A stretch of 64,000 nt of DNA, from contig OZ024743.1 of NCBI GenBank assembly GCA_964016885.1, forward strand, positions 19,778,001 to 19,842,000, in the 5' to 3' direction. The position numbers and the translations under genes were made by a program. Under the pieces are notes generated by a model that worked only from the letters and a program-made list of their open reading frames with translations, made no database searches and had not been told where the DNA came from. The DNA is from Eledone cirrhosa (Eukaryota). This document shows, in pieces, positions 11,611 through 36,226 of the stretch; the first letter of the stretch is position 1; each line of letters starts with the position of its first letter.

Positions 11611-11946
11611 TGTTTAATGGTTTGTAACCGTACGTTACTAGTGGTTCACTCGATGTATAGTACATCGAGTGTATAGTACATGGTGCTGAACGAGGTGCCA
11701 AAGAATCATCATTACGTTTATTGCGGTGTGATGTGCGTTTCGCGATTGATCAGCTCAAAGTCTAAGCTGTATAGATCGGACCCGACTCTGGATCAATAAC
11801 TCATCAGACTCTTTAAGGAAACCAAGTGTATGATGAGGTATTGAATGCAGAGTCAGGTCCGATCAATACAGATCAAACCTTGAGCTGATTAATGGCAAAA
11901 CGTGCCTCAAACATCTAGAATCTTAATGATAATTTGACACCTCGTT
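11611..11946. mobile_element. Fold-back element, family B (older copy): arms 11689-11946, tail 11611-11688
   Basis: Imperfect inverted arms between (TA)n runs. The tail contains the hairpin CACTCGATGTA/TACATCGAGTG. Confidence 0.75.
11726..11811 (-). ncRNA. Degenerate type I hammerhead ribozyme with a long stem II
   Basis: Minus strand reads gagt-CUGAUGA-G..AUUGAUC...GAUCAAU..C-GAAA-C-GCAC-A-UC-acac. Stems I and III carry mismatches. Confidence 0.55.
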
Positions 11947-11971
11947 TCTACTTATTATTAATTATATATAA

Positions 11972-12043
<72 letters not shown>

Positions 12044-12174
12044 GTGAGGTTTTTTTTACAAAATGAAAAATAACCGAGGTGTCCTACACGAGTGGAAGTA
12101 TAAATAAAAAGGGATGAAATCAAAAATGCAACTGAAGTCTTATTTTTTTTTTAAATATATATATTTATTTGGTT

Positions 12175-12212
12175 CCTTTACCGGTTTCGCAGTTCTTCTG
12201 CTTTTCAAAAGG
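12175..12212 (-). ncRNA. Mirror copy of the U3-A8 minimal hammerhead
   Basis: Exact reverse complement of 12282-12319. Confidence 0.8.
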
Positions 12213-12281
12213 TGAGTTGAGATGGAGGGTCTGTGGTTTTTCTCACAGTGAGAAAAACCACAGACCCTCCATCTCAACTCA

Positions 12282-12319
12282 CCTTTTGAAAAGCAGAAGA
12301 ACTGCGAAACCGGTAAAGG
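12282..12319 (+). ncRNA. Minimal type I hammerhead ribozyme, U3-A8 core variant
   Basis: CCUU-UUGAAAA-GCAG aagaa CUGC-GAAA-CCGG-UA^AAGG. Stems I and II are perfect and the stem-III loop is palindromic. Confidence 0.8.
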
Positions 12320-15242
12320 AACCAAATAAATATATATATTTTAAAAAAAAATAAGACTTCAGTTGCATTTTCGATTTCATCCCTTTTTCTTTATATATAT
12401 ATATATATATAGTTATACGTGTGTGTGTATGTGTGTGTGCGTGTGTATTTACCGATGATGTTGATCTTTTCTTCTTTTCAGGTTATAGCTACTGTCGCTC
12501 AGGGAGTAGGATTGGCTCAGTGCACAGTCTTTCCTCACTTTAAAAAATATCTTCACGCACAGGCATTGCACGATTGATTAATTATTAATAATGGTATAAC
12601 GTGCAATGGCCATACTCGATAACGAGGGGGCAGCCATCATCATGTATGCAAGTATGTAAGATATAAAATTTTACAAATATCCTGAAATATCTGAATCTAT
12701 TTTTGAAATTTCAAGACAGATATTTGCCGGCTCAATCAAGTAATAGATCCCCTATAATCAGGCCTGATCCATATTTTGGGAACACTTTTAGACAATGCAG
12801 TGAGAGTGGATCCAATAGTGGAAGGAATGGGCTCATTTTCATATTATTATGTCTCTAAATAGTTGTTCTACCTTCCCTGTAAAGGTAACAGCTCTACTCT
12901 TTCGTGATGCCCTTAAAGCCAGGAACTTTTCAGCGCCCCGTCGTAAGTGTGTGTGAGTGTGTGTGTGTGTGTCATTTTCGAATATTTCCACCATCATATA
13001 TACCATAGTTTTTTTATACTAATCCACTTTTCCAAATCCACTGATGAAGCATCAGTATACACTGATACTGATCGTTTATTTTTGTGCAAGTCAGTGCTGA
13101 GACCTTCAATGTACTCAGTCATTTGACTGCCATTTTCTTTCGCAAAATCAGGAGTGGAGCATAACACTTAAGAGATGAAACCCACGAGGCTGAATGACTT
13201 ATGCTGCGGGTATCATCAGCTGCTAACCGCAAAAAATGCTTTTACTAACTTGACCACACAGTGCAGCTAAAATATTCCTTTCAGCCAAGGGTGTAAAATG
13301 TTCTCTCTTTTCATTCTTCCCTTTTCTTTTCTTAGATTTCCTTTCTTAGATTTCCTTTCTTCTGTCTTTTTGTCACTGTGTAATTTGTAATTAATTTCGT
13401 TCTGCCATAACACATATTCACGCACAAAACTGTCATCTCTACTCACTTAAGCAGTGTGACTTTACATCTCCCCACCAAGCGCTTACTTAGATATCCATAT
13501 AATTCGCACATGTTTTGTTTATTATATAATAAAAGCAAAATACACTTTCTACATCTCACTATCAAAGGAGCCAGCAGGGCAATACTTTTAAATAACTCTA
13601 TCTGACAAACACACACACATTCACACATACATACACACACATGTGCGTGTCTGTCTATGTGCGTGTGTGCGTTTGTGCTCGTGTATTTGAGAGTGAAAGA
13701 GAACCTAGTAATTAAACTCTAACATAGGAATATATATTTCCGTCAAACAACATTACATGTCAAATGCCATTGCGTTTCCCACCGCAAACACGACTTTCTT
13801 TGTTATTATTCTAATGAAGGTGTCAAAGAAAGTTTATTATTTTCAAAATTGATATCTGCACCCACAGATGATTTACTATTGTTGAGTGCTCTTCAAATAC
13901 TGACAAATATTTCCATAGATTCTGATGGAAAGAATATAGAGATATAGATATAGACTATTGATTTATTAGCGTAACATCTGGTTTTGAGTTATGTTAGTGA
14001 TTCTTGACAAGTTTACATATATGTACAATTCTGCTATGGCATACTTGTCCAGTCATATACAAATATGGGACATTAAATTCAAATATTGATGCACTAGGTC
14101 GACTACCAATTATATCTACGTTGATATTAGTAGCTATAACGGATGTGCTTGTATTGATCATGTAATCAATTTTTGATAACCATTTAGAATTCTCTGGCAT
14201 AAATTCAAGCAGCATATATATGACAAACGTTTTCATTAAAGTATTTGAATTTTGATTTTCGCGTTGCACAAATACCATACATTATAAAGGTGGAGGATGT
14301 AATCACATAATATTCGATGAAGATTCGTGGGCTTTTCTTTTCTATGGCAGGAAGATATTGACCTGTGCCACGCCAGAATTTGGGTCAACTTCCAGCCTGC
14401 TCTACGATGCATTTCATGATTTGAAGGTTGTCATGGAGAGATCTGTGCATTACCAATGACAAGTGCTTAACTCTTAGCCAGCAACTTTGCCAAATCCTTC
14501 AGCTTTGCGTTACGGACTTGAACGTGTATATCATGTCACCTTGTGGGTTTTGATCTCAGAACACTTAGAGCGTAAATAAAGTTCACAAGAGAGTTTGTGG
14601 GATGCTGTAACGATGCTGTCAAATAGCAATATGGATCGGAAAAAATAGAAGTAGACTGATAGAAAATAGTTTATATTGCATCACTTTTAATTGCTCTATT
14701 GCACCATATTCTGTTTCTTAACGGTAATTATTTATAGGGTTATACGTTATGACTGTAATAGATAAGAATTGCTTACCTTTGAAAGAGAATGCAATCAAAA
14801 ATGTAAATAGCTCTTTCATTACAACATACTCAGAACCTGTCAGCAGTTTCTGTATCAAGGGATGGAAGTGAGGAAAATAATGCTGGAAGAAATCCAATTT
14901 AATTTTCTGGCACAATGTAGAATATAAGGGACATTTATCATATCAGTAGGAATTAAATGGAGCCATGGAAGTGGAATAGAAAATGAGAAGGTCATAACCA
15001 TTGGAGATAGCATAGGATTGCTCTTTTGCATAATGGAAATGTTCTACGAGGTAGGTTGGTTTTAATCCAAAGGTACAACTCTTCATTATTTATGAAAAAA
15101 CAAACCGGAAATTACTGGATATGATTCAGGCAGATTTATATATATATATATATATATATACATATATTCATACATAGACACACGCACACACACACATATT
15201 CAATAGAAGTCAACAATAGAACCAAACAATTCATATATATAT

Positions 15243-20623: not shown

Positions 20624-21781
20624 TCAGAAGTTTATAGTACTGCATAGCTTACGGGGCCAATGCACCCTTCGACCTGAATGGGTCGTATTTCTGTATGTTG
20701 GTGGTGGTGGGGGGCGAAGAAACAAGTGTATGTGGAGAAGAAAAAGAAGGGGCATTTGTGGTTCAAGTGTCACCGTGTCAGTGTCCAGATTGGCTCGTTT
20801 GAGGCGATCAACGTAAATAGTTTCCCTGCACCCCCTAATGTCCACTGTGAAATGTTTCTCTGTACGACCAAGCACACGATAGGGTCCAGAGTACGGCCGT
20901 GTGAGAGGGGGTCTCACAGCGTCGTCTCTAACGAATACATGTGTCCACAAGGCAATATCCCTTGGGACGGCAGTTTTACAGTTTGCTTCCTAGTCTCCAT
21001 CGGTGGTAAATCCTGGAAGTAAGAATGAAGCCGGGACACGTAGGAAGCGGGATCCTGCAAAGCAAGATCAACAGGAGCAAGCATTTGCCCCGGTAACGCA
21101 AGAGGAGTACCATAAATCAATTCGGCCGGGGAGAACCCAAGGTCCACCTTTATTGTCGACCGAATACCTAACAACACAATAGGTAGGTACTCGCTCCAAC
21201 GTGAAGAGTCCATGGAAGCCCTTAAAGAGGCTTTGAGTTGCCTGTGGAATCTTTCCACCATTCCGTTTGATGCTGGATGATATGCCGTGGTTCTTATGCG
21301 AGTAGCGCCAATAATTTGTGTTAATTCACGGAAGAGGTTCGATTCAAATTGACGACCGTGGTCTGTTGTTATTGTGGTTGGTACTCTAAAACGAGCGATC
21401 CATGCAGATACGAGAGTACGCGCTGTCGTTTCAGCAGTGATATCTGTCATAGGGATGGCTTCAGGCCAACGCGAAAAACGGTCAACGATCGTCAAAATAT
21501 ACGAATAACCACGACTAATGGGCCAGGGGCCGACGATGTCCACATGGATGTGACGAAATCTGGCATCAGGACAGGTGAAAGTTCCGAGGAGTTTTAACGT
21601 GCTTATGAACTTTTGACTTTTGGCAAGCGACACAGGAACGGCACCAAGCAGCAATGTCACGTCTCATATCAGGCCAGAAAAATCTGGCTGTTATGAGTTT
21701 TACCGAGGCTGTAGCTCCTGGGTGAGAAATGCCATGCAAAGCGAGAAATACAGTTCGTCGATGACCAACTGGGACGAGAGG
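20624..21781 (-). pseudogene. pol: Gypsy integrase (HHCC zinc finger, DDE core, GPY/F region), frameshifted
   Basis: LHGISHPG; HIHVDIVGP; [10 protein letters not shown]; [20 protein letters not shown]; PLTRPYSGPYRV. Confidence 0.9.
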
Positions 21782-22447
21782 TCATGGTGAGTCCAACGAG
21801 ATATCACAAAGTATCTGTCCGTTAGCGGTTGATAAAGGAAGGTATTTCATATTGCAGTTAATGAACTGCGGCGATGTGCAATCCAATGATTCAAGCGAGG
21901 GTTGGTCAATGGCCATTTGACGCAAATCTATATCGTTAGACGACGAGATCGAAGCTATCGGGAGGCGAGACAAGGCGTCTGCCGCAGTGTTCAACGCACC
22001 CGGAATATGTTGAATATCATTTGTGTATTGGGAAACAAAATCCAGATGTCTAGTTTCCCTAGGCGAATATTTGTCAGATTTTGATCTTAAAGCAAAAATC
22101 AACGGTTTGTGATCTGTGAAAATAGTGAACGCTCTCCCGTCCAGAACATGGGAGAAATGTTTCACAGATAAATAAATTGCTAAAAGCTCACGCCCGAAAG
22201 TACTATAACGATTTTCGGCAGGCTTTAGCTTTCTCGAAAAAAATTCCAGTGGTTGTTGTAAACCATCGCACTTCTGTTGCAAGACTGCGCCCACGGCGGT
22301 ATCCGACGCATCAACACAGAGCGATAGCTCGGCGTTGGGTACTGGGTGGGCGAGCAAAGACGCGCTCGCTAACGCCTTTTTCACTTTTTTAAAATCCTTA
22401 AGCTGCGTTTTATTTAAGGAAATGTCCATATTCTTACGCCGGCAATT
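21782..22447 (-). pseudogene. pol: Gypsy RNase H domain
   Basis: VDASDTAVGAVLQQ, RELLAIY, FTDHKPL, AADALSR. Bounded by in-frame premature stops. Confidence 0.92.
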
Positions 22448-23344
22448 TTAAAAAATGTCTGTCAACGAGAACAGCAAGTTGGAACAACCAGGTACGAATC
22501 GCCTATAAAAATTTACAAGGCCCAGGAATTGACGCAATTGTCGCAGTGAACTTGGCGGAGGCAAACCCGATACTGCCTTAAGCTTCTCAGGAAGAGGTCG
22601 AATACCATCGGCGTCAATCAGATGACCTAAAAATATTAGTGAAGTCGAGCCGAAAACACACTTGGAAGCATTAATACGAACATTATATCTCTGTAAACGA
22701 TGAAATAAGAGATCCAGATGCTTTGAATGCTGATGAGGGGAAGAACTAGCAATCAACACGTCATCGATATGCGTGTACACAAAATCCAGGCCCCGAGTAA
22801 CATCATCCATAAATAGTTGGAAGGTACTAGCCGCATTTCTTAGCCCGAAAGGCATAGTGAGGAACTCGAAGGATCCAAAAGGAGTGGCAATAGCAGTCTT
22901 CGGAATATCCTCCTTTTTAACCGGAATCTGATTATAAGCACGAATCAAATCGATCTTAGAAAAAATTGTGCAACCTTGTAATGAAGAAGCGAAATCCTGC
23001 AAATGCGGGATTGGATAACGGTCAGGCACAGTAATCGCGTTTAAGCGTCGGTAGTCACCCGCCGGTCTCCACTCACCAGAAGATTTAAGTACCATATGTA
23101 GAGGCGATGCCCAAGCACTTGTGGAACGCCGAATTATTCCTAATTCCAGCATGTGGTCGAATTCAGACCGTGCAGCCTTCAACTTCTCTGCAGATAATCT
23201 TCGAGGACGTGAGAAAACGGGTGGACCTGTAGTGGATATAAAGTGTTCAATCACATGATCCGGACTAGCAATTCGTAATCTTCCTTGCGTCAGCTGTGGG
23301 AATGATTTTAACAAACTGTGATACTGGTTGCCCACTTCAGCCAA
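22448..23344 (-). pseudogene. pol: Gypsy reverse transcriptase
   Basis: [37 protein letters not shown] (YxDD altered to HIDD), [12 protein letters not shown]. Confidence 0.95.
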
Positions 23345-23752
23345 GAAAAAAGCAGGGGTTACTGTGGCGATCTCCGGCTTTGTACCATTGAACGATAGCC
23401 CTGTATTAGCATCAAAATGTCATTGTCTGCGGATGTCAATCAACAAGGAAAAATGGTGGAGGAAATACGCTCCCAAGATAGCATATGGTAAGCCGGCGAT
23501 AGTAAATTTCCACCTAAAATCATGGCGAAGATTTGTAAACTTAAGAGGAAGCTAAATTTGTCCATAAGTTTGAATCGCCGTATGGTTGACTGCTTGCAAA
23601 TTGATAGTGGACTCAGGCGGAGTATTATCCAGATAACTAACTGGCCAAATACTTAGTGTCGCGCCAGTGTCGACAAGAAAAATTTCTTTGGACTGCAGGT
23701 CATACACAAAAGGAAGACGGTTTTGTCGAGTTTCCCAGAGTTGACTAGCCGC
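23345..23752 (-). pseudogene. pol: Gypsy aspartic protease
   Basis: Manual translation gives EIFLVDTGATLSIWP in the -1 frame relative to gag, with an in-frame TAG near 23553. Confidence 0.85.
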
Positions 23753-23754
23753 CC

Positions 23755-24549
23755 CTAGTGGCTCTGATTGGCGTTTTCCGAACTCCTATAGTTACAAGGC
23801 GCCCGACAGCTTTGCGCCCGTTTACCAAAGGTTGCATGATACCAACAAAGTTGAGGATTACTACTACCTCTAGTGTAGTGGCGGCGAGGAACAGCAGACG
23901 GGGGCGAACGATTCCTCAGACGTTGGGATGGCTCTCTGTTTTTGACAGTCAAAACATCCACTTTCCTGGTCAGCGCTTCGATTGCTTCCAGCAGTTTTTC
24001 CTCGGCTAAAGACGATTTGTGCAGGGGAACGGAAGAAGAAGCAACACAAGGATTATGCAGGCTGCTTTTTAAATCCAATTCTAGGATTTTATCGGCAGAT
24101 GCAGCGATCTGATCCAAAGAATCTCTCTCCAAAGTATTTACTAGAACCATCTGTGCACTCGGCGGCAAACGAGAGAAAAACAACTGTTTAATGAAGGATG
24201 TATCAATTCCTTGGGAGTCGCTCAGCTCACGTAGATGTCGCAAATAGGAGGTTCGCGTTCTGTCACCCATCTGTGCACCCTCCGATAATTCCCCAAAACG
24301 GCTCTCCACAGACTTAGTATTCCTCCGAAGAATTTCCAGTTTTAATGAGTCATAGGTTACGTCTGCAGCTAAATTCGTTACAACATCCTTTACGGAATAT
24401 GCCAAAGATACAGGCAGGCCATTAATAAGCACCTTCAATTTATGCTGTTCTTTGGTGTGGGTCAAATCGAAATAGCAATCGAGCTGAGAAAACCATAGTT
24501 TAATATCGCCCGCAAATATCGGCAAATGATGTGAATTCATGAGGCCCAA
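23755..24549 (-). CDS. gag: Gag with CHCC nucleocapsid motif
   Basis: 264-aa open ORF containing LWFSQLDCYF and CWYHATFGKRAQSCRAPC. Confidence 0.9.
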   Translation of the reverse strand: MGLMNSHHLPIFAGDIKLWFSQLDCYFDLTHTKEQHKLKVLINGLPVSLAYSVKDVVTNLAADVTYDSLKLEILRRNTKSVESRFGELSEGAQMGDRTRTSYLRHLRELSDSQGIDTSFIKQLFFSRLPPSAQMVLVNTLERDSLDQIAASADKILELDLKSSLHNPCVASSSVPLHKSSLAEEKLLEAIEALTRKVDVLTVKNREPSQRLRNRSPPSAVPRRHYTRGSSNPQLCWYHATFGKRAQSCRAPCNYRSSENANQSH

Positions 24550-25187
24550 AGATTTGATGAATTTTTAAGGCCAAATTATTTCTTCGAAGCAGCTATGCGA
24601 CCAAAAGGGGACACTGGAATCCAAAATCTTATTCACGCGAATTCAACTGAAATTCCTTTTGAAAATTCTCGCCGGCCAAAATAAAATTTGAATAATAAAA
24701 AAAATTATTTTCCATGAAAATCATTTGGTAAGAAAATCCCAAGATGGCTGATTGAAAAAGGTGTTTGTGATGAAGAAGCCGTCATGTGGCACGATTCAGC
24801 CAATCAGATGGCTAGGATTGAAGAAGACAAGCTGTACACGGGAAAACAAAATTTTTGAGTTTCCATTTTGTAATTTTAACAGAAGGTTGAAAGCAAAATT
24901 TTATATCCAGAGAAATCCTTTTTTTTTTTAATTTATTTTTTTTTTTTAAAGAGAGAAGTTGATGCAAGAGGAAAAATATTGTTCACTCAAAGACAAGATA
25001 CCAAACAACAACGGGCCTGAATTCCATATATATATGTGCAGCGTCGCACACTTTGTACATAAAATAAATATCATTATTGATAAAACGCTTGTTGAGTTGT
25101 GATAACTTTTTTTTGTTTTTATCTAACTATGCTTGCAAGGCAGGTCAGAAGGAGCTACAATTTAGCAATTAATTTTAAAAGTTGTTC

Positions 25188-26844: not shown

Positions 26845-28275
26845 TACAGACCCACACTCCCCCCGGCCTGAACTCTCCACCCTTATTCCTTTAGCGTTCG
26901 ACCACCCCCTCCCCCCACACTTATCCCCCACTAACACCACTAACACACCCCTCCTGTTCACCGCCCACCCCACACTAACAATACTAACACCTCCACTCCA
27001 CCCCTCATCTGACCACCCTTCCCCAACTAACATACTAACATCCCTTCCCTCCCCTCTTCTCCTCCTCCCCCCTCCTTATCACACGCACACACGCACCCAC
27101 TTACACCACCCACCCCACACGCAACTAACATCACTAACACCCCCCCCCCAACCCCACGCACACGTACCCACACACCCTCGTACACCACCAACTCTACACA
27201 CCCTACCACCACTAACCCCCACTCACACCTGCATTCAACCCCTCCCCACCTCCCATATACTAATACCCACTAACACCTCTTCACCAAACTACACACACAC
27301 CAGTACACCACACTCCCTCCATAGAACCACACACACCCTTCTCTCCCCGCTCCACCCACACCCCCGTCCACACTCACTCATCCCACTAACACCACTACTA
27401 ATACACACACACACACACCCTCCTCACTCCAACTTTCACACCTACCCATCCTCGCCCCCTTACCATTCCACCGACTGCTGCTATGCCCTTCTGACCACCT
27501 CCCAGCACCAACAGACCACAGCACTCCCACTGCTGACCACTTCCTGTTGCGCGCGCACCCCACATCTCTCCTCTTCCGACCACCGCTTCATGGATTACCC
27601 ACACGCAGAATTTGACTTAACCAATCCTCCCAACATCCTTGGAACTTACCAACTTTTCAACCATCCTCTTACGTCATCACCTATATAACTCACCCACACA
27701 CACACCCCCAAAAAAAAATTTTTCTCCACACGCCACCCACACCCACAACACGCTTAAACCCCACACACACGTGCTTCCCACCACATATTTACACCCTCAG
27801 CCTCCTGATTCCTCTCCCCCCACCCCCCTATCCACACATACACACACACACACACACACGCACACCTACACACACACACCACCTTCAGCCCTCCCCGCTC
27901 GGACACCCCGTCTCCCTCTCCCCACTCCACCCGCCACCACCCCTACTCACCCCACACCCTTCCACCACCTGTTTACCCCTCCCCTTTTAATTTCAGTTTA
28001 TTTTGATCATGCCTTTATTTTTAAATTTTCTCATTCCTTGTATTTTGATCATGCTTTATTTTTATTTTTTAACTTTATTTGTTAATTTTTCATTCGCACC
28101 GTTTCCTTTCGCTATATGTCTCTCCACCACTCCCCTACACACCTTTTGAACTCTGTTCCCACACACTGTCCCCCACCTACCCCCCACTCTCCTAAGCGTG
28201 AAATTAATAAACATTTATTGTACTGCCTCTCTGTTTTGTCCCTGTTCATATTTTTCCATTATATATATATATATA
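26673..28275 (-). mobile_element. Possible non-autonomous Helitron with a CA-rich low-complexity body
   Basis: The minus strand ends in gacccaaagggccacgggtggtCTAGt (hairpin plus CTAG). The other boundary is a guess. Confidence 0.3.
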
Positions 28276-28280
28276 TATAT

Positions 28281-28710
28281 AACCAAAAGTTTAACAAGGT
28301 TCATTGAATAATCAATGAATAAAGTTTTACAATAGATTAGAAGCACTCAACAGTAGGGGTTTCTGGAGTTATTAATATTACTTCAAAATATTAATAAATA
28401 TAGACATTCATGTGATCAAATATATTTTATTATACATATTTCAGAGGTACTGAGCTATTTCATCAGTACGTTCTCATCAGATAAAATAAATTGATGTCTG
28501 ACATACCTCAACTGTGCTGATGGTTCCATTCCAGCCCTGGCAGTTCAATTCCAGTCTTGACTGCCAAGACTGGAATTGAACCATCAGCACAGTTGAGATA
28601 TGTCAGACATCAATTTATTTTATCTGATGAGGACATACTGATGAAATATGTATAATAAAATATATTTGATCACATGAATGTCTATATTTATTAATATTTT
28701 GAAGTAATAT
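28281..28710. mobile_element. Fold-back element, family A copy 1: arms 28375-28710, tail 28281-28374
   Basis: Inverted arms between (TA)n runs, homologous to 35775-36210 in the opposite orientation. Confidence 0.9.
28423..28488 (-). ncRNA. Type I minimal hammerhead ribozyme
   Basis: UAUUUUAU-CUGAUGA-gaacGUACUGA...UCAGUACcucu-GAAA-U-AUGU-A-UA^AUAAAAUA, with an 8-bp stem I. The base of stem II is imperfect. Confidence 0.7.
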
Positions 28711-29494
28711 ATATATATATATATTACTATGGTGTGTGTGTGTATATATATGTGTGTGTGTATATGAGTGTGTACGTATATATATATGTGTGTGTGTGTA
28801 TGTGCGTGTGTGTCTTCCATTTTCCTTCCCTGTCTCCTCTCTCTATCTCTTTCTCTCTATCTTTCTCTCTCTATCTCTTTCTCTCTATCTTTCTCTCTCT
28901 ATTTATGACGGTACGTCTGTGTGATTATTTGTGGCGTTTGGCTGCATGAGTTTCTGTGTCTACGTTTTAAAGTCTAGTACATACCATTGAAAATGTATTT
29001 CTTCTTCTTTTCTGCCTGCTCCTCCTCCCCACTCCTCCTCCGCCTCCTCCTTCTTCTTCTTCTTCTTCTTCTTCTTCTTCTTCTTCTTCTTCTTCTCTTT
29101 ACCCCTAATGGTTTTGATGTTCCAGGTTCAAATAGTTACGGTTTTCTCCCTTTTTGGGGTTTGGGGATAGGCAATCTTTTTGCGAACATCCCACGTCTCC
29201 CAAAACAGGTTACAGGCTCATTTCCAGTTTTTACAGCATGAGATGGAGACTGCAATATATTTTTTCAAACAAACTCATCTACGTAATGCCTGAACACATC
29301 CCTACCTAATGCCAGAACACATCTTAACGTGAAGGAAGATGCGGTATGAGTATTTTTGTTGCCTCTACCAATAATGCAGTTTGTTGGTCTTATTCGCACC
29401 AATTACCATTTTGATACTTTTCTCAGATCTATTCACTAAATATCCTTCTAGAATGCTATTCTTCTTCTTCTTTTCGTATCTTCGAAGCATGTGG

Positions 29495-31943: not shown

Positions 31944-32862
31944 AAGGCGGGTAAAATTCCCGAGATCCATGGACGAGTTCTCTCCAGCGGTCTCTGTCCC
32001 TCATTATCGCTGCCATGTCCTGCATCTCCAACAGACCAGTGTGTGTCCTTAGGGCATCAACATACGTTAACCTTGGTATTCCTCTTCTAGTGTGTCCATG
32101 TAGGGGCTCCCAAAGGAGTACTGAGTGCAATGTCAACTCTGGATGTCGGTGAGCATGTCCAGCTAACCTCAGTCACATCCTGATGTTGAGGAGGATATTA
32201 GAGGGAGCTAGAGCAAAGTGCCTTCCTGCGGTCATGGTTTTCATTGACTTTAGGAAGGCCTTTGATTCTGTGGACCCTTACTGCCTGATGAAGATCTTAC
32301 AGGCTTATGGAATCCCCAAGAAGATAGTGGACCTGATATCACTGCTCTACACCAACACCAAAGCCCAAGTCATTACACCTGATGGGATGACAGAGTTCTT
32401 TGAGATACTGGCTGGAGTGCTCCAGGGAGATACATTGGCTCCCTACCTTTTTATCATCGTAGTCGACTATTGTATGCGCCTTGCACTGGAGAAACACCAG
32501 GACACTGGCTTTACTGTAGCACCGGCTCAGAGCAGGAGAGTTAGGGCGAAAAAGGTACCGGATGCTGAATTTGCCGACGACATAGTTTTGGTGACAAATA
32601 CAGTGAAGGAGGCAGAGGATTTGATGCGGGAGGTTGAGACTGTGTCGATGAGTGTGGGGCTGAGAATGAATGAGACTAAAGCAAAATATCTGGTAGAGAA
32701 TGTTGAGAAGCCAGAGGGGATCACTAATGTAGGCGGGAAGCCGCTGGAATTGGTTGAGGACTTCCTGTATTTGGGAGCAAAGATTGGGAATACGGAAGAT
32801 GATGTGGTTGAGAGGAAAGACAAAGCCTGGGCGGCGTGCCTCAGCTTGGGATCGGTTTGGAA
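31942..32862. mobile_element. RTE-like LINE insertion with a 5' inversion
   Basis: Minus strand 31942-32170 encodes the C-terminus (LAGHAHRHPE...RGIPRLTYVD...DRDRWR..SREFYPP*). Plus strand 32173-32862 encodes the RT core (FIDFRKAFDSV, GVLQGDTLAPYLF, FADD, FLYLG). Confidence 0.85.
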
Positions 32863-32914
32863 GTTGCTCCAACTACTACAGGCACTATTTCTACCTTTAT
32901 TATTATTATTAATA

Positions 32915-33520
32915 GGGCGGTGGATTGGCAGTATCGGTAGAGGGTCGGACGCCATGCTTTCCAGCATAGCTACGTCCCTTTATGATCTGAGTTCAAATCC
33001 CGCCGAGGTTGACTTTGCCTTTCATCCTCACGGGGTCGATAAAATAAAGTACCAGTAATGCACTGGGTAATTGCTGGCCTTGTGCCTAAAGTAGAAACAA
33101 TTATGTGTATGCGGTAGATGGCAGTATCGGTAGAGGGTCGCACGCCATGCTTTCCAGCATAGTTACGTCCCTTTACGATCTGAGTTCAAATCCCGCCGAG
33201 GTTGACTTTGCCTTTCATCCTCACGGGGTCGATAAAATAAAGTACCAGTAATGCACTGGGTAATTGCTGGCCTTGTGCCTAAAGTAGAAACAATTATTAT
33301 GTGTATGCAATCTATACGTATTATTGAGGGCGGTGAATTGGCAGTATCGGTAGAGGGTGGGACGCCATGATTTGACGCATAGAGTTACGGCCCTTGCCAT
33401 TCTGAGTTCAAATCCCGCCGAGGTTAACTTTGCCTTTCATCCTTACGGGGTTGATAAAATAAAGTACCAGTAATGTACTGGTTAATTGCTGGCTTGTGCC
33501 AATAGTAGAAACAATTATTA
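32915..33520 (+). mobile_element. Three consecutive SINE copies (32915-33103, 33111-33300, 33328-33520)
   Basis: Three near-identical units separated by duplicated target sequence. Confidence 0.9.
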
Positions 33521-34221
33521 TGTGTATGCAATCTATACGTATTATTGTGTCATTATGTGTGAGTAGGATATCAGTGTGGGTGGGTGTATGTCTGCGGTGG
33601 TGTATGGATAGATAACCGTTTGCGCAACTATAGGAATATCATTATGTAAATCCACAAACCAGGAAATGCTGATATACGTTTTACTCTATAATTACGCAGC
33701 ATTACTGCCTTTCTGGATATAATAAAATAGCCCACAATTCCTGTCAATATACATCAAATTTTTCCTATCACATTCTCTATCACCATTTAGCAATGAAAGT
33801 AAATGTTTTAGACATATATTGATTTTCTCCCTTTATGTTTTTGTTCTACTTCTGTCTGCGACAGATAATTATGACTACTATACCTTCATATATAAACGAA
33901 GAGATCCTAGATATAAAGCAAGATATCCAATAGCACTGGGTGACAATTATGAATGTATCTTTACTAAATTAACTAATTCTAACCAGATTATTTACAGAAT
34001 ATAACAATTCAGATGTTTTTAGAGCCATTTGTTCGCTGTGGTTGTATCCGCACCGATTGCTTGTGACTTTTGTTTTTCATGTTTATTTTATATCGATAAA
34101 CTATATTTTTTTTTTATCCACAATGTGATTTTACTTATGTTATTGTCTTCCTTTTGACAATAAGTCTCACACACAGAGCGAGAGGGAGAGAGAGAAAGAG
34201 AGAGAGACAACCAAACACACA

Positions 34222-35745: not shown

Positions 35746-35782
<37 letters not shown>

Positions 35783-35822
35783 CAAAATATTAACAAATGA
35801 AAAATATACTCATAATCAAAAT

Positions 35823-35894
35823 ATATACTTTATTATATATATTTCAAAGGTACTGTGTTGTTTTTTCAGTACGTCCTCATCAGACAAAATATAT
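35823..35894 (-). ncRNA. Type I minimal hammerhead ribozyme (left arm)
   Basis: AUAUAUUUUGU-CUGAUGA-ggacGUACUG..CAGUACcuuu-GAAA-U-AUAU-A-UA^AUAAAGUAUAU. Confidence 0.75.
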
Positions 35895-35995
35895 GATTTT
35901 ATATATGACCACTACGGTCTTGATTATTCAATTCCAGTATTGGCAGTACTGGAATTGAATAATCAAGACTGTAGCGGTATGCCATATATCAAATC

Positions 35996-36067
35996 ATATA
36001 TTTTGTCTGATGAGGACGTACGGAAAAAACAACACAGTACCTTTGAAATATATATAATAAAGTATAT
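35996..36067 (+). ncRNA. Type I minimal hammerhead ribozyme (right arm)
   Basis: CTGATGA at 36007-36013, GAAA at 36045-36048, palindromic AUAU loop, predicted cleavage after 36056, and an 11-bp stem I including GU pairs. Confidence 0.72.
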
Positions 36068-36226
36068 ATTTTGATTATGAGTATATTTTTCATTTGTTAA
36101 TATTTCGAATAATATTAAAGACTCAAGGAAAACTTTACTAGTTGAGTGCTTCTAATGTATTGTAAAATTGTATTCATTGAGTAATCAACGAACCATACTA
36201 ATCTTTGGTTATATATATATATGTAT

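What the first reader, a model, noticed from the sequence alone, without database searches (positions are those of the whole stretch)
12175..12319. Twin minimal hammerheads with a compensatory U3-A8 core in a near-perfect 283-bp palindrome
Seen: CCUU UUGAAAA GCAG-aagaa-CUGC GAAA CCGG UA^AAGG on the plus strand (12282-12319) and identically on the minus strand (12175-12212). Established: hammerhead C3-G8 forms a tertiary pair, so UUGAAAA (U3-A8) is the compensatory form of CUGANGA. A 1-bp stem III with palindromic ACCGGU is the signature of hammerheads that cleave as dimers. Standard CUGANGA searches would miss it. Inference: near-identical arms and a 1-nt loop indicate a young insertion from a possibly still active family.
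Basis: partly seen in the sequence, partly recalled or inferred. Interest (0 to 1): 0.8.

Follow-up and report, generated by a model that had tools for sequence, protein, structure and literature searches.

The report
Penelope retrotransposon stub with mirrored hammerhead
This palindrome is two short, head-to-head copies of one end of a young Penelope-type jumping gene that has thousands of copies in this genome; each copy carries a likely self-cutting RNA motif of an already published variant kind, so the locus itself is ordinary.

Summary
The motif and the palindrome are real. The 38-nt motif has 6,009 exact copies in the 3-Gb genome. It belongs to the pseudo-LTR of a Penelope-like element with RT plus GIY-YIG endonuclease and Neptune-type motifs. 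The window holds an inverted, 5'-truncated pair in a (TA)n tract, with a 62-nt tail on one arm.

The U3-A8 core, opposite-strand hammerhead pairs 100-700 bp apart, inverted copies and tails are all published (PMC4209133, PMC8557442, PMC3846280). The twins lie on opposite strands, so they cannot form the active dimer with each other. There is no covariation inside the family (0 C3-G8 copies).

Side results from the copies: 38 of 86 sampled arms begin within -5..+8 of a predicted TATA/initiator start. Only a weak excess begins at the predicted cleavage site (75 vs 42 and 45). 14 of 15 inverted pairs carry exactly one tail. Templates were therefore likely mostly uncleaved RNA, and each arm likely a separate cDNA. 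Cleavage is untested.

The parts
12037..12395 (.). Whole insertion: head-to-head inverted pair of 5'-truncated pLTR copies of a Penelope-like element, in a (TA)n tract
   Evidence: blastn of long copy L192 against the window; family ends; flanks
12037..12247 (-). Left arm: starts about 4 nt after the predicted transcription start and runs to the long 3' end, tail included
12248..12395 (+). Right arm: starts about 5 nt after the predicted start and stops at the short 3' end (no tail)
12037..12098 (-). Optional 3' tail (62 nt), present on one arm only
   Evidence: 52 of 86 sampled arms have it; exactly one tail in 14 of 15 pairs
12282..12319 (+). Minimal type I hammerhead motif, U3-A8 core (12286-12292), stem II 12293-12305, ACCGGU 12309-12314, predicted cut after 12315
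   Evidence: cleavage not tested
12175..12212 (-). Mirror copy of the same motif, predicted cut after 12179
11963..12036 (.). (TA)n target tract, left
12396..12411 (.). (TA)n target tract, right

Best explanation
The palindrome is a head-to-head pair of 5'-truncated pseudo-LTR copies of a young, likely Neptune-type Penelope-like retrotransposon, and each arm carries that element's minimal U3-A8 hammerhead motif, which would likely cleave only as a dimer and is likely inert at this locus. Shown: family identity, motif position about 165 nt upstream of ORF1 in sense, two fixed 3' ends, (TA)n targets, and clustered 5' ends. Inferred mechanism: (1) a complete tandem copy is transcribed from a TATA/initiator promoter in its pLTR; (2) the RT-endonuclease cuts a (TA)n tract; (3) the cut ends prime reverse transcription inside the RNA at one of two short TATA-like sites about 150 and 215 nt from the 5' end; (4) RT runs through the mostly uncleaved hammerhead to the RNA 5' end; (5) two such cDNAs, one from each initiation site, join at their 3' ends and give an inverted pair with one tail. 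The window copy lacks the TATA box and its two motifs face away on opposite strands.
For: 6,009 exact copies. Long copies lead into an RT + GIY-YIG ORF (PF00078 E 4.9e-7, PF01541 E 7.7e-5, both above cut-off). Direct pLTR-ORF-pLTR units 4.6-5.0 kb apart in L033 and in 4 of 6 long copies; three of those four also have an upstream inverted motif. 5' ends: 38 of 86 arms at -5..+8 of an initiator-like site 30 nt below TATAAAA. Exact counts fall from 12,656 downstream to 2,995 upstream of that point, and to 244 in the ORF. Read-derived contigs of run X1 show the same step, fold-back joints at that point and both (TA)n ends. Pairs: one tail in 14 of 15 (0.5 expected from random pairing); subfamily marks agree in 14-15 of 15; the T/A tract agrees in only 2 of 15; one pair mixes subfamilies. 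The architecture matches PMC8557442, PMC3846280 and PMC4209133; internal initiation, cutting of both strands and uncleaved template match PMC11167929.
Against: The transcription start is predicted from motifs only. Clade assignment rests on motifs, with no tree. The T/A tract could differ between arms through slippage after insertion, so single-cDNA fold-back is not excluded (PMC3846280 proposes self-priming). The pair sample is small (15) and biased to loci found by the exact motif. The older subfamily (39 of 71 arms) has an A-G mismatch in stem I, and the motif lacks the unpaired base before stem II that is common in published minimal hammerheads. No target-site duplication can be read inside (TA)n.
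Confidence: 0.92

Rival explanations
1. The twin hammerheads are a functional dimer module at this locus, as the title of the finding implies.
For: Two identical intact motifs 70 bp apart. ACCGGU is self-complementary, and two sense copies are predicted to pair through it.
Against: The motifs are on opposite strands. A read-through RNA is predicted to form a -241.5 kcal/mol hairpin that masks the motif. Motif spacing in other pairs varies from tens of bases to over 4 kb, and many copies are single. The TATA box is not in this insertion.
Confidence: 0.03
2. The palindrome is an assembly or library fold-back artefact.
For: Near-perfect arms with a 1-nt loop resemble chimeric reads.
Against: The arms differ at 3 positions, one a CpG-type C-to-T change. 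They are asymmetric and end at the family's two fixed 3' ends. Similar pairs are common. Opposite-strand joints occur in read-derived contigs of run X1 (this run may be the assembly's own sample).
Confidence: 0.02
3. It is a MITE or foldback DNA transposon, or a non-LTR retrozyme spreading on its own.
For: Short, high-copy, palindromic and non-coding; the short form outnumbers the ORF about 50-fold.
Against: Arm lengths vary and the sequence is collinear with a retroelement end. It has no fixed terminal inverted repeats with a spacer, and no head-to-tail tandem of short units here. The short copies lack the TATA box.
Confidence: 0.03
4. Same element, but the motif is a degenerate, non-cleaving relic or serves only as an RNA pairing or protein-binding signal. 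This is compatible with the best explanation; the confidence is for this sub-question.
For: The monomer hammerhead fold is unstable (+0.7 kcal/mol). Under 1% of arms begin at the cut site. Published minimal hammerheads cleave poorly or need protein.
Against: All core positions, G10.1-C11.1 and the U3-A8 pair are intact in both subfamilies. There is a 1.7-fold local excess of 5' ends at the cut site. Other families in this genome keep the same architecture with different stems.
Confidence: 0.3

Closest known systems
Minimal hammerheads of metazoan Penelope-like elements, including the U3-A8 variant of Schistosoma Cercyon (Cervera and de la Pena 2014, PMC4209133)
   Same: Type I motif in the pLTR, short stem I, palindromic stem III, U3-A8 core, dual motifs on opposite strands, mostly truncated copies.
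   Different: Here stem II is 4 bp (7-8 bp in Schistosoma), with no unpaired base after A9. Copies are highly uniform (6,009 identical). The host is an octopus-like genome.
Neptune-clade EN+ Penelope-like elements (as described in Craig et al. 2021, PMC8557442)
   Same: RT then C-terminal GIY-YIG, CX4CxxC linker, CCHH motif, (TA)n targets, partial tandems, inverted 5'-truncated copy, tail on one end. ORF1 set off by a frameshift is noted for PLEs in their Fig. 1 legend.
   Different: The tail is 62 nt rather than 30-40. Placement is by motifs only; no tree was built.
Poseidon PAc of Anolis (Frangieh et al. 2024, PMC11167929)
   Same: Two internal RT initiation sites that define the tail, AT-rich targets, hammerhead near the pLTR-ORF junction, uncleaved RNA as the main template.
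   Different: PAc starts at RNA sites not homologous to the target, whereas both ends here fall on short TATA stretches that could pair with (TA)n. PAc has a C3-G8 core overlapping the ORF start.
Adineta vaga Penelope insertions (Arkhipova et al. 2013, PMC3846280)
   Same: Head-to-head inverted pLTRs with palindromic junction, optional tail on one, TATA plus initiator in the pLTR.
   Different: Low copy number with visible target-site duplications there; self-priming on an antisense template was proposed.
Non-LTR retrozymes (bioRxiv 10.64898/2026.07.22.740005)
   Same: Short non-coding PLE-derived units with a type I hammerhead.
   Different: Retrozymes are head-to-tail tandems; this is an inverted pair.

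Membership tests
Minimal type I hammerhead (PLE type) | Core N3-U-G-A-N-N8-A with a 3-8 pair, GAAA, and UH cleavage triplet | tested here: met
   UUGAAAA (U3-A8), GAAA, GUA; U3 71/71 and A8 71/71 arms
Minimal type I hammerhead (PLE type) | Stem I and stem II with G10.1-C11.1 | tested here: met
   4 bp + 4 bp, present in the MFE fold; the older subfamily has 3 bp, an A-G mismatch and then a U-A pair in stem I
Minimal type I hammerhead (PLE type) | Very short palindromic stem III able to pair between two copies | tested here: met
   ACCGGU; cofold gives an intermolecular helix through it (prediction only)
Minimal type I hammerhead (PLE type) | Covariation among homologous copies | tested here: inconclusive
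   None inside the family; other PLE-like families in the genome show C3-G8 with different stems and palindromes
Minimal type I hammerhead (PLE type) | Site-specific self-cleavage, as a dimer | not testable with these tools
   Only a weak indirect hint: 75 vs 42 and 45 5' ends
Rfam hammerhead families | Score at or above the gathering threshold | tested here: not met
EN+ Penelope-like element | RT followed by GIY-YIG endonuclease, linked to the repeat | tested here: met
EN+ Penelope-like element | pLTRs in partial tandem, inverted 5'-truncated copy, optional tail, hammerhead in the pLTR | tested here: met
   L033, L192, L193, L195
EN+ Penelope-like element | RT groups with PLE/telomerase RTs in a tree | not tested
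   No named reference PLE proteins were returned; 2,422 homologues of 8,000 scored share the domain layout
Neptune clade | CX2-5CxxC linker and CCHH motif in a C-terminal EN; (TA)n targeting | tested here: met
   Read from the L031 translation; definitions from PMC8557442; flanks
Neptune clade | Phylogenetic placement, versus Nematis which shares the motifs | not tested
   No tree built
Non-LTR retrozyme | At least two head-to-tail units, each with a hammerhead | tested here: not met
   Inverted pair only; no tandem array at this place
MITE / foldback DNA transposon | Fixed terminal inverted repeats of a DNA transposon with uniform length | tested here: not met
   Variable arm lengths, collinear with a retroelement end

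The most novel reading that the evidence does not exclude
Thousands of copies record how Penelope-like elements integrate: two RNAs, held together by the hammerhead's ACCGGU palindrome acting as a dimerisation signal like a retroviral kissing loop, are each reverse-transcribed from opposite strands of one cut in (TA)n, one from each internal start site, all the way to the capped 5' end. A small minority of copies starting at the cut site would be fossil proof that a U3-A8 minimal hammerhead cleaves in vivo.
Probability: 0.15. Interest if true: 0.65.

Novelty: new member of a known kind. Interest (0 to 1): 0.27.

Why it matters
The locus itself matters little: it is one of thousands of likely dead stubs. 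The family is useful because its size and youth make open questions about Penelope-like elements testable from sequence alone: how inverted ends and tails form, and whether the pLTR hammerhead cleaves in vivo. PMC8557442 calls hammerhead function in these elements unclear, and PMC11167929 found no RNA reads ending at the cut site. It also shows that Rfam and CUGANGA searches miss at least 6,000 such motifs in this genome.

Tried and rejected
A DNA similarity search of the genome returned nothing because common words are skipped; patterns were used instead. Search for a C3-G8 version of this family's motif: 0. Search for a sister family with CUGANGAG and the same CCGG stem III: 0. No RNA holder was listed, which is no evidence on expression. 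Contigs of runs X1, X4 and X5 (kind not on record) showed no joint matching the candidate intron in the pLTR; this is uninformative. Rfam E-value hits are miRNA hairpin models matching the palindrome centre, all below gathering score, and were rejected. The reading of the 5'-end cluster as an intron 5' end (GT at +5) was set aside because many ends lie at -1..+4. The idea that the window's second palindrome family is a Neptune sister was rejected: its long copies carry Hydra-type motifs, and the Neptune-like ORF near L212 was not seen in other long copies. Lunse et al. 2017 on dimer cleavage is not held; only its title and a review's summary were seen. One search was a script error, rerun. Look-ups of earlier scan notes gave one unrelated hit and two blanks.

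Full report
Observation. Both 38-nt motifs are at the stated places and are identical. The palindrome has 148-nt arms (12099-12246, 12248-12395), 3 mismatches and one central base. One mismatch is a CpG-type C-to-T change and one shifts the boundary of a T/A tract (what the sequence shows). The motif fits a minimal type I hammerhead with a U3-A8 core. The descriptor had 0 hits in 2,000 Markov simulations of the 4.9-kb element. Rfam finds nothing at gathering score and lists no hammerhead family at E up to 10.

What it belongs to. The exact 38-mer occurs 6,009 times in the 3.0-Gb genome, with 0 for the control. A 30-mer further downstream occurs 12,656 times. Following longer copies upstream leads through about 1 kb of 3' UTR into an ORF. 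In L031 a 761-aa stretch matches RVT_1 (E 4.9e-7) and GIY-YIG (E 7.7e-5), both above Pfam cut-offs. It has a CX4CxxC linker and the CCHH motif, which PMC8557442 gives for the Neptune and Nematis clades (passages). The only named eukaryote among the 120 listed homologues is an Octopus bimaculoides protein at 74% identity over 55% of the query. L033 and 4 of 6 further long copies are pLTR-ORF-pLTR units with the motif in direct repeat 4.6-5.0 kb apart; three of those four also have an inverted motif upstream. The motif is in sense, about 165 nt before the ORF1 ATG. The window insertion is thus about 12037-12395: two head-to-head pLTR stubs in a (TA)n tract, the left one with a 62-nt tail.

Age. 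Against the window's left arm, 18 arms of the same subfamily differ by a median 3.2% (lowest 1.1%) and 26 others by 5.9%. These are the 44 of 86 arms with at least 150 aligned bases, T/A tract excluded. One of 6 long copies checked has both ORFs uninterrupted. 'Young' is supported; present-day activity is not tested.

Covariation. I sampled 86 arms by the downstream anchor, so not by the motif. Of the 71 that span the core, U3 and A8 are invariant. A C3-G8 version has 0 copies, and a looser sister-family pattern also has 0. 39 of 71 arms belong to an older subfamily whose stem I has an A-G mismatch. Other hammerhead-like families in the fetched loci have C3-G8 cores, different stems and different palindromes (CTAG, GATC, TGCA).

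How it likely formed. 38 of 86 arms have their 5' end within -5..+8 of one point; 28 extend further upstream and 20 start further downstream. That point lies 30 nt below TATAAAA, at an initiator-like site, so it is likely the transcription start (inference). Exact counts drop from 12,656 to 2,995 across it. Contig depth in run X1 shows a similar step, and joints between opposite strands fall there (depth is not a copy number, and the run may be the assembly's own sample). The two 3' ends both fall on short TATA stretches of the element followed by (TA)n. Most copies run through the motif, so the template was likely uncleaved. PMC11167929 (parts 1-2 of 4 read) reports the same in vitro for a lizard PLE, with two internal initiation sites and cutting of both strands. 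Of 464 arms that lose homology around the cut site, 75 start exactly at the predicted 3' product, against 42 and 45 at the two neighbouring positions. This 1.7-fold excess is under 1% of arms; duplicates were not removed and (TA)n flanks bias the bins, so it is only a hint. Among 15 head-to-head pairs that passed a strict pattern, 14 have exactly one tail (0.5 expected). Three subfamily marks agree in 14, 15 and 14 of 15 pairs (0.81, 0.58 and 0.37 at random). The T/A tract agrees in 2 of 15, and one pair mixes subfamilies. This favours two separate cDNAs, usually from one source locus, over one folded-back cDNA, but does not prove it.

Can the twins work together? Likely not. They are on opposite strands. 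RNA across the insertion is predicted to fold into one hairpin of -241.5 kcal/mol. The monomer hammerhead fold scores +0.7 kcal/mol, while two sense copies are predicted to pair through ACCGGU. The insertion starts below the TATA box.

Comparison with print. PMC4209133 (parts 1-2 of 4 read) reports the U3-A8 variant, about 1,300 hits with a dedicated descriptor in Schistosoma, dual motifs 100-700 bp apart on opposite strands, and low activity even as dimers. PMC8557442 and PMC3846280 (passages) describe inverted 5'-truncated copies, palindromic junctions, one-sided tails, (TA)n targeting and TATA plus initiator in pLTRs. PMC2377424 (passages) places the Penelope start site in the pLTR region. 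PMC6765202 (passages) reviews dimer cleavage. The 2026 retrozyme preprint (part 1 of 5 and passages) derives retrozymes from PLEs. PMC6431247 and PMC6962438 (passages) added nothing. Lunse et al. 2017 was not available. I saw no supplements, and they may list this or a close family. Three searches (octopus + Penelope + hammerhead; start-site truncation; twin priming) listed no paper that, by title and abstract start, describes this family, the 5'-end cluster or two-template priming in PLEs. The library lacks most subscription papers and Repbase.

Verdict. A real feature and a new member of a known kind. The unusual core and the mirrored pair are both explained and published. What remains of interest is the family's record of integration, which is suggestive and testable. 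Interest 0.27.

Noticed in passing
window about 35749-36113: A second head-to-head palindrome with twin hammerhead motifs, here with canonical CUGAUGA core and an AT palindrome in stem III. A shared 21-mer has 3,292 copies. Long copies carry a PLE ORF with CxCX5C, CxxC and CxH motifs, as described for the Hydra clade.
   Followed up: partly
window about 28260-28724: A third inverted pair with CUGAUGA hammerhead-like motifs, related to the second family; the right-hand copy has a deletion in stem II.
   Followed up: partly
L192 (G000:C1:155814500-155824400); L162-L191: The family has a 401-aa ORF1 overlapping the RT-EN ORF in the -1 frame, with a U-UUU-UUA heptamer in the overlap and a weak hairpin after it. 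ORF1 stops 28 codons past the overlap anchor in 30 of 30 copies. A programmed frameshift is likely; frameshifted ORF1 is already noted for PLEs.
   Followed up: partly
window 12248-12395 and L033:8054-8218 (minus strand): Candidate intron in the pLTR: possible donors just after the predicted start and within stem III next to the cut site, and a pyrimidine tract plus AG inside the tail. Untested for lack of RNA reads.
   Followed up: partly
window 12337-12351 and family copies: A T-run/A-run of about 13 nt whose boundary differs between copies and between the two arms of most insertions (13 of 15 pairs); cause unexplained.
   Followed up: partly
window 11704-11934: Imperfect inverted repeat, 90-nt arms, 77% complementary, 51-nt spacer; looks like an old MITE.
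   Followed up: no
window about 20900-24560 (minus strand): Broken gypsy-like LTR retroelement ORFs (gag-like, RT, RNase H, integrase by eye from translations).
   Followed up: no
window 32910-33521 and at least six other places: A repeated 190-nt SINE-like unit, in tandem at 32917-33297, next to a non-LTR RT fragment at 32153-33055.
   Followed up: no
protein search hits P0012, P0038, P0040, P0061: Close homologues of this PLE protein are filed under bacterial symbionts of molluscs, probably host contamination of those assemblies.
   Followed up: no
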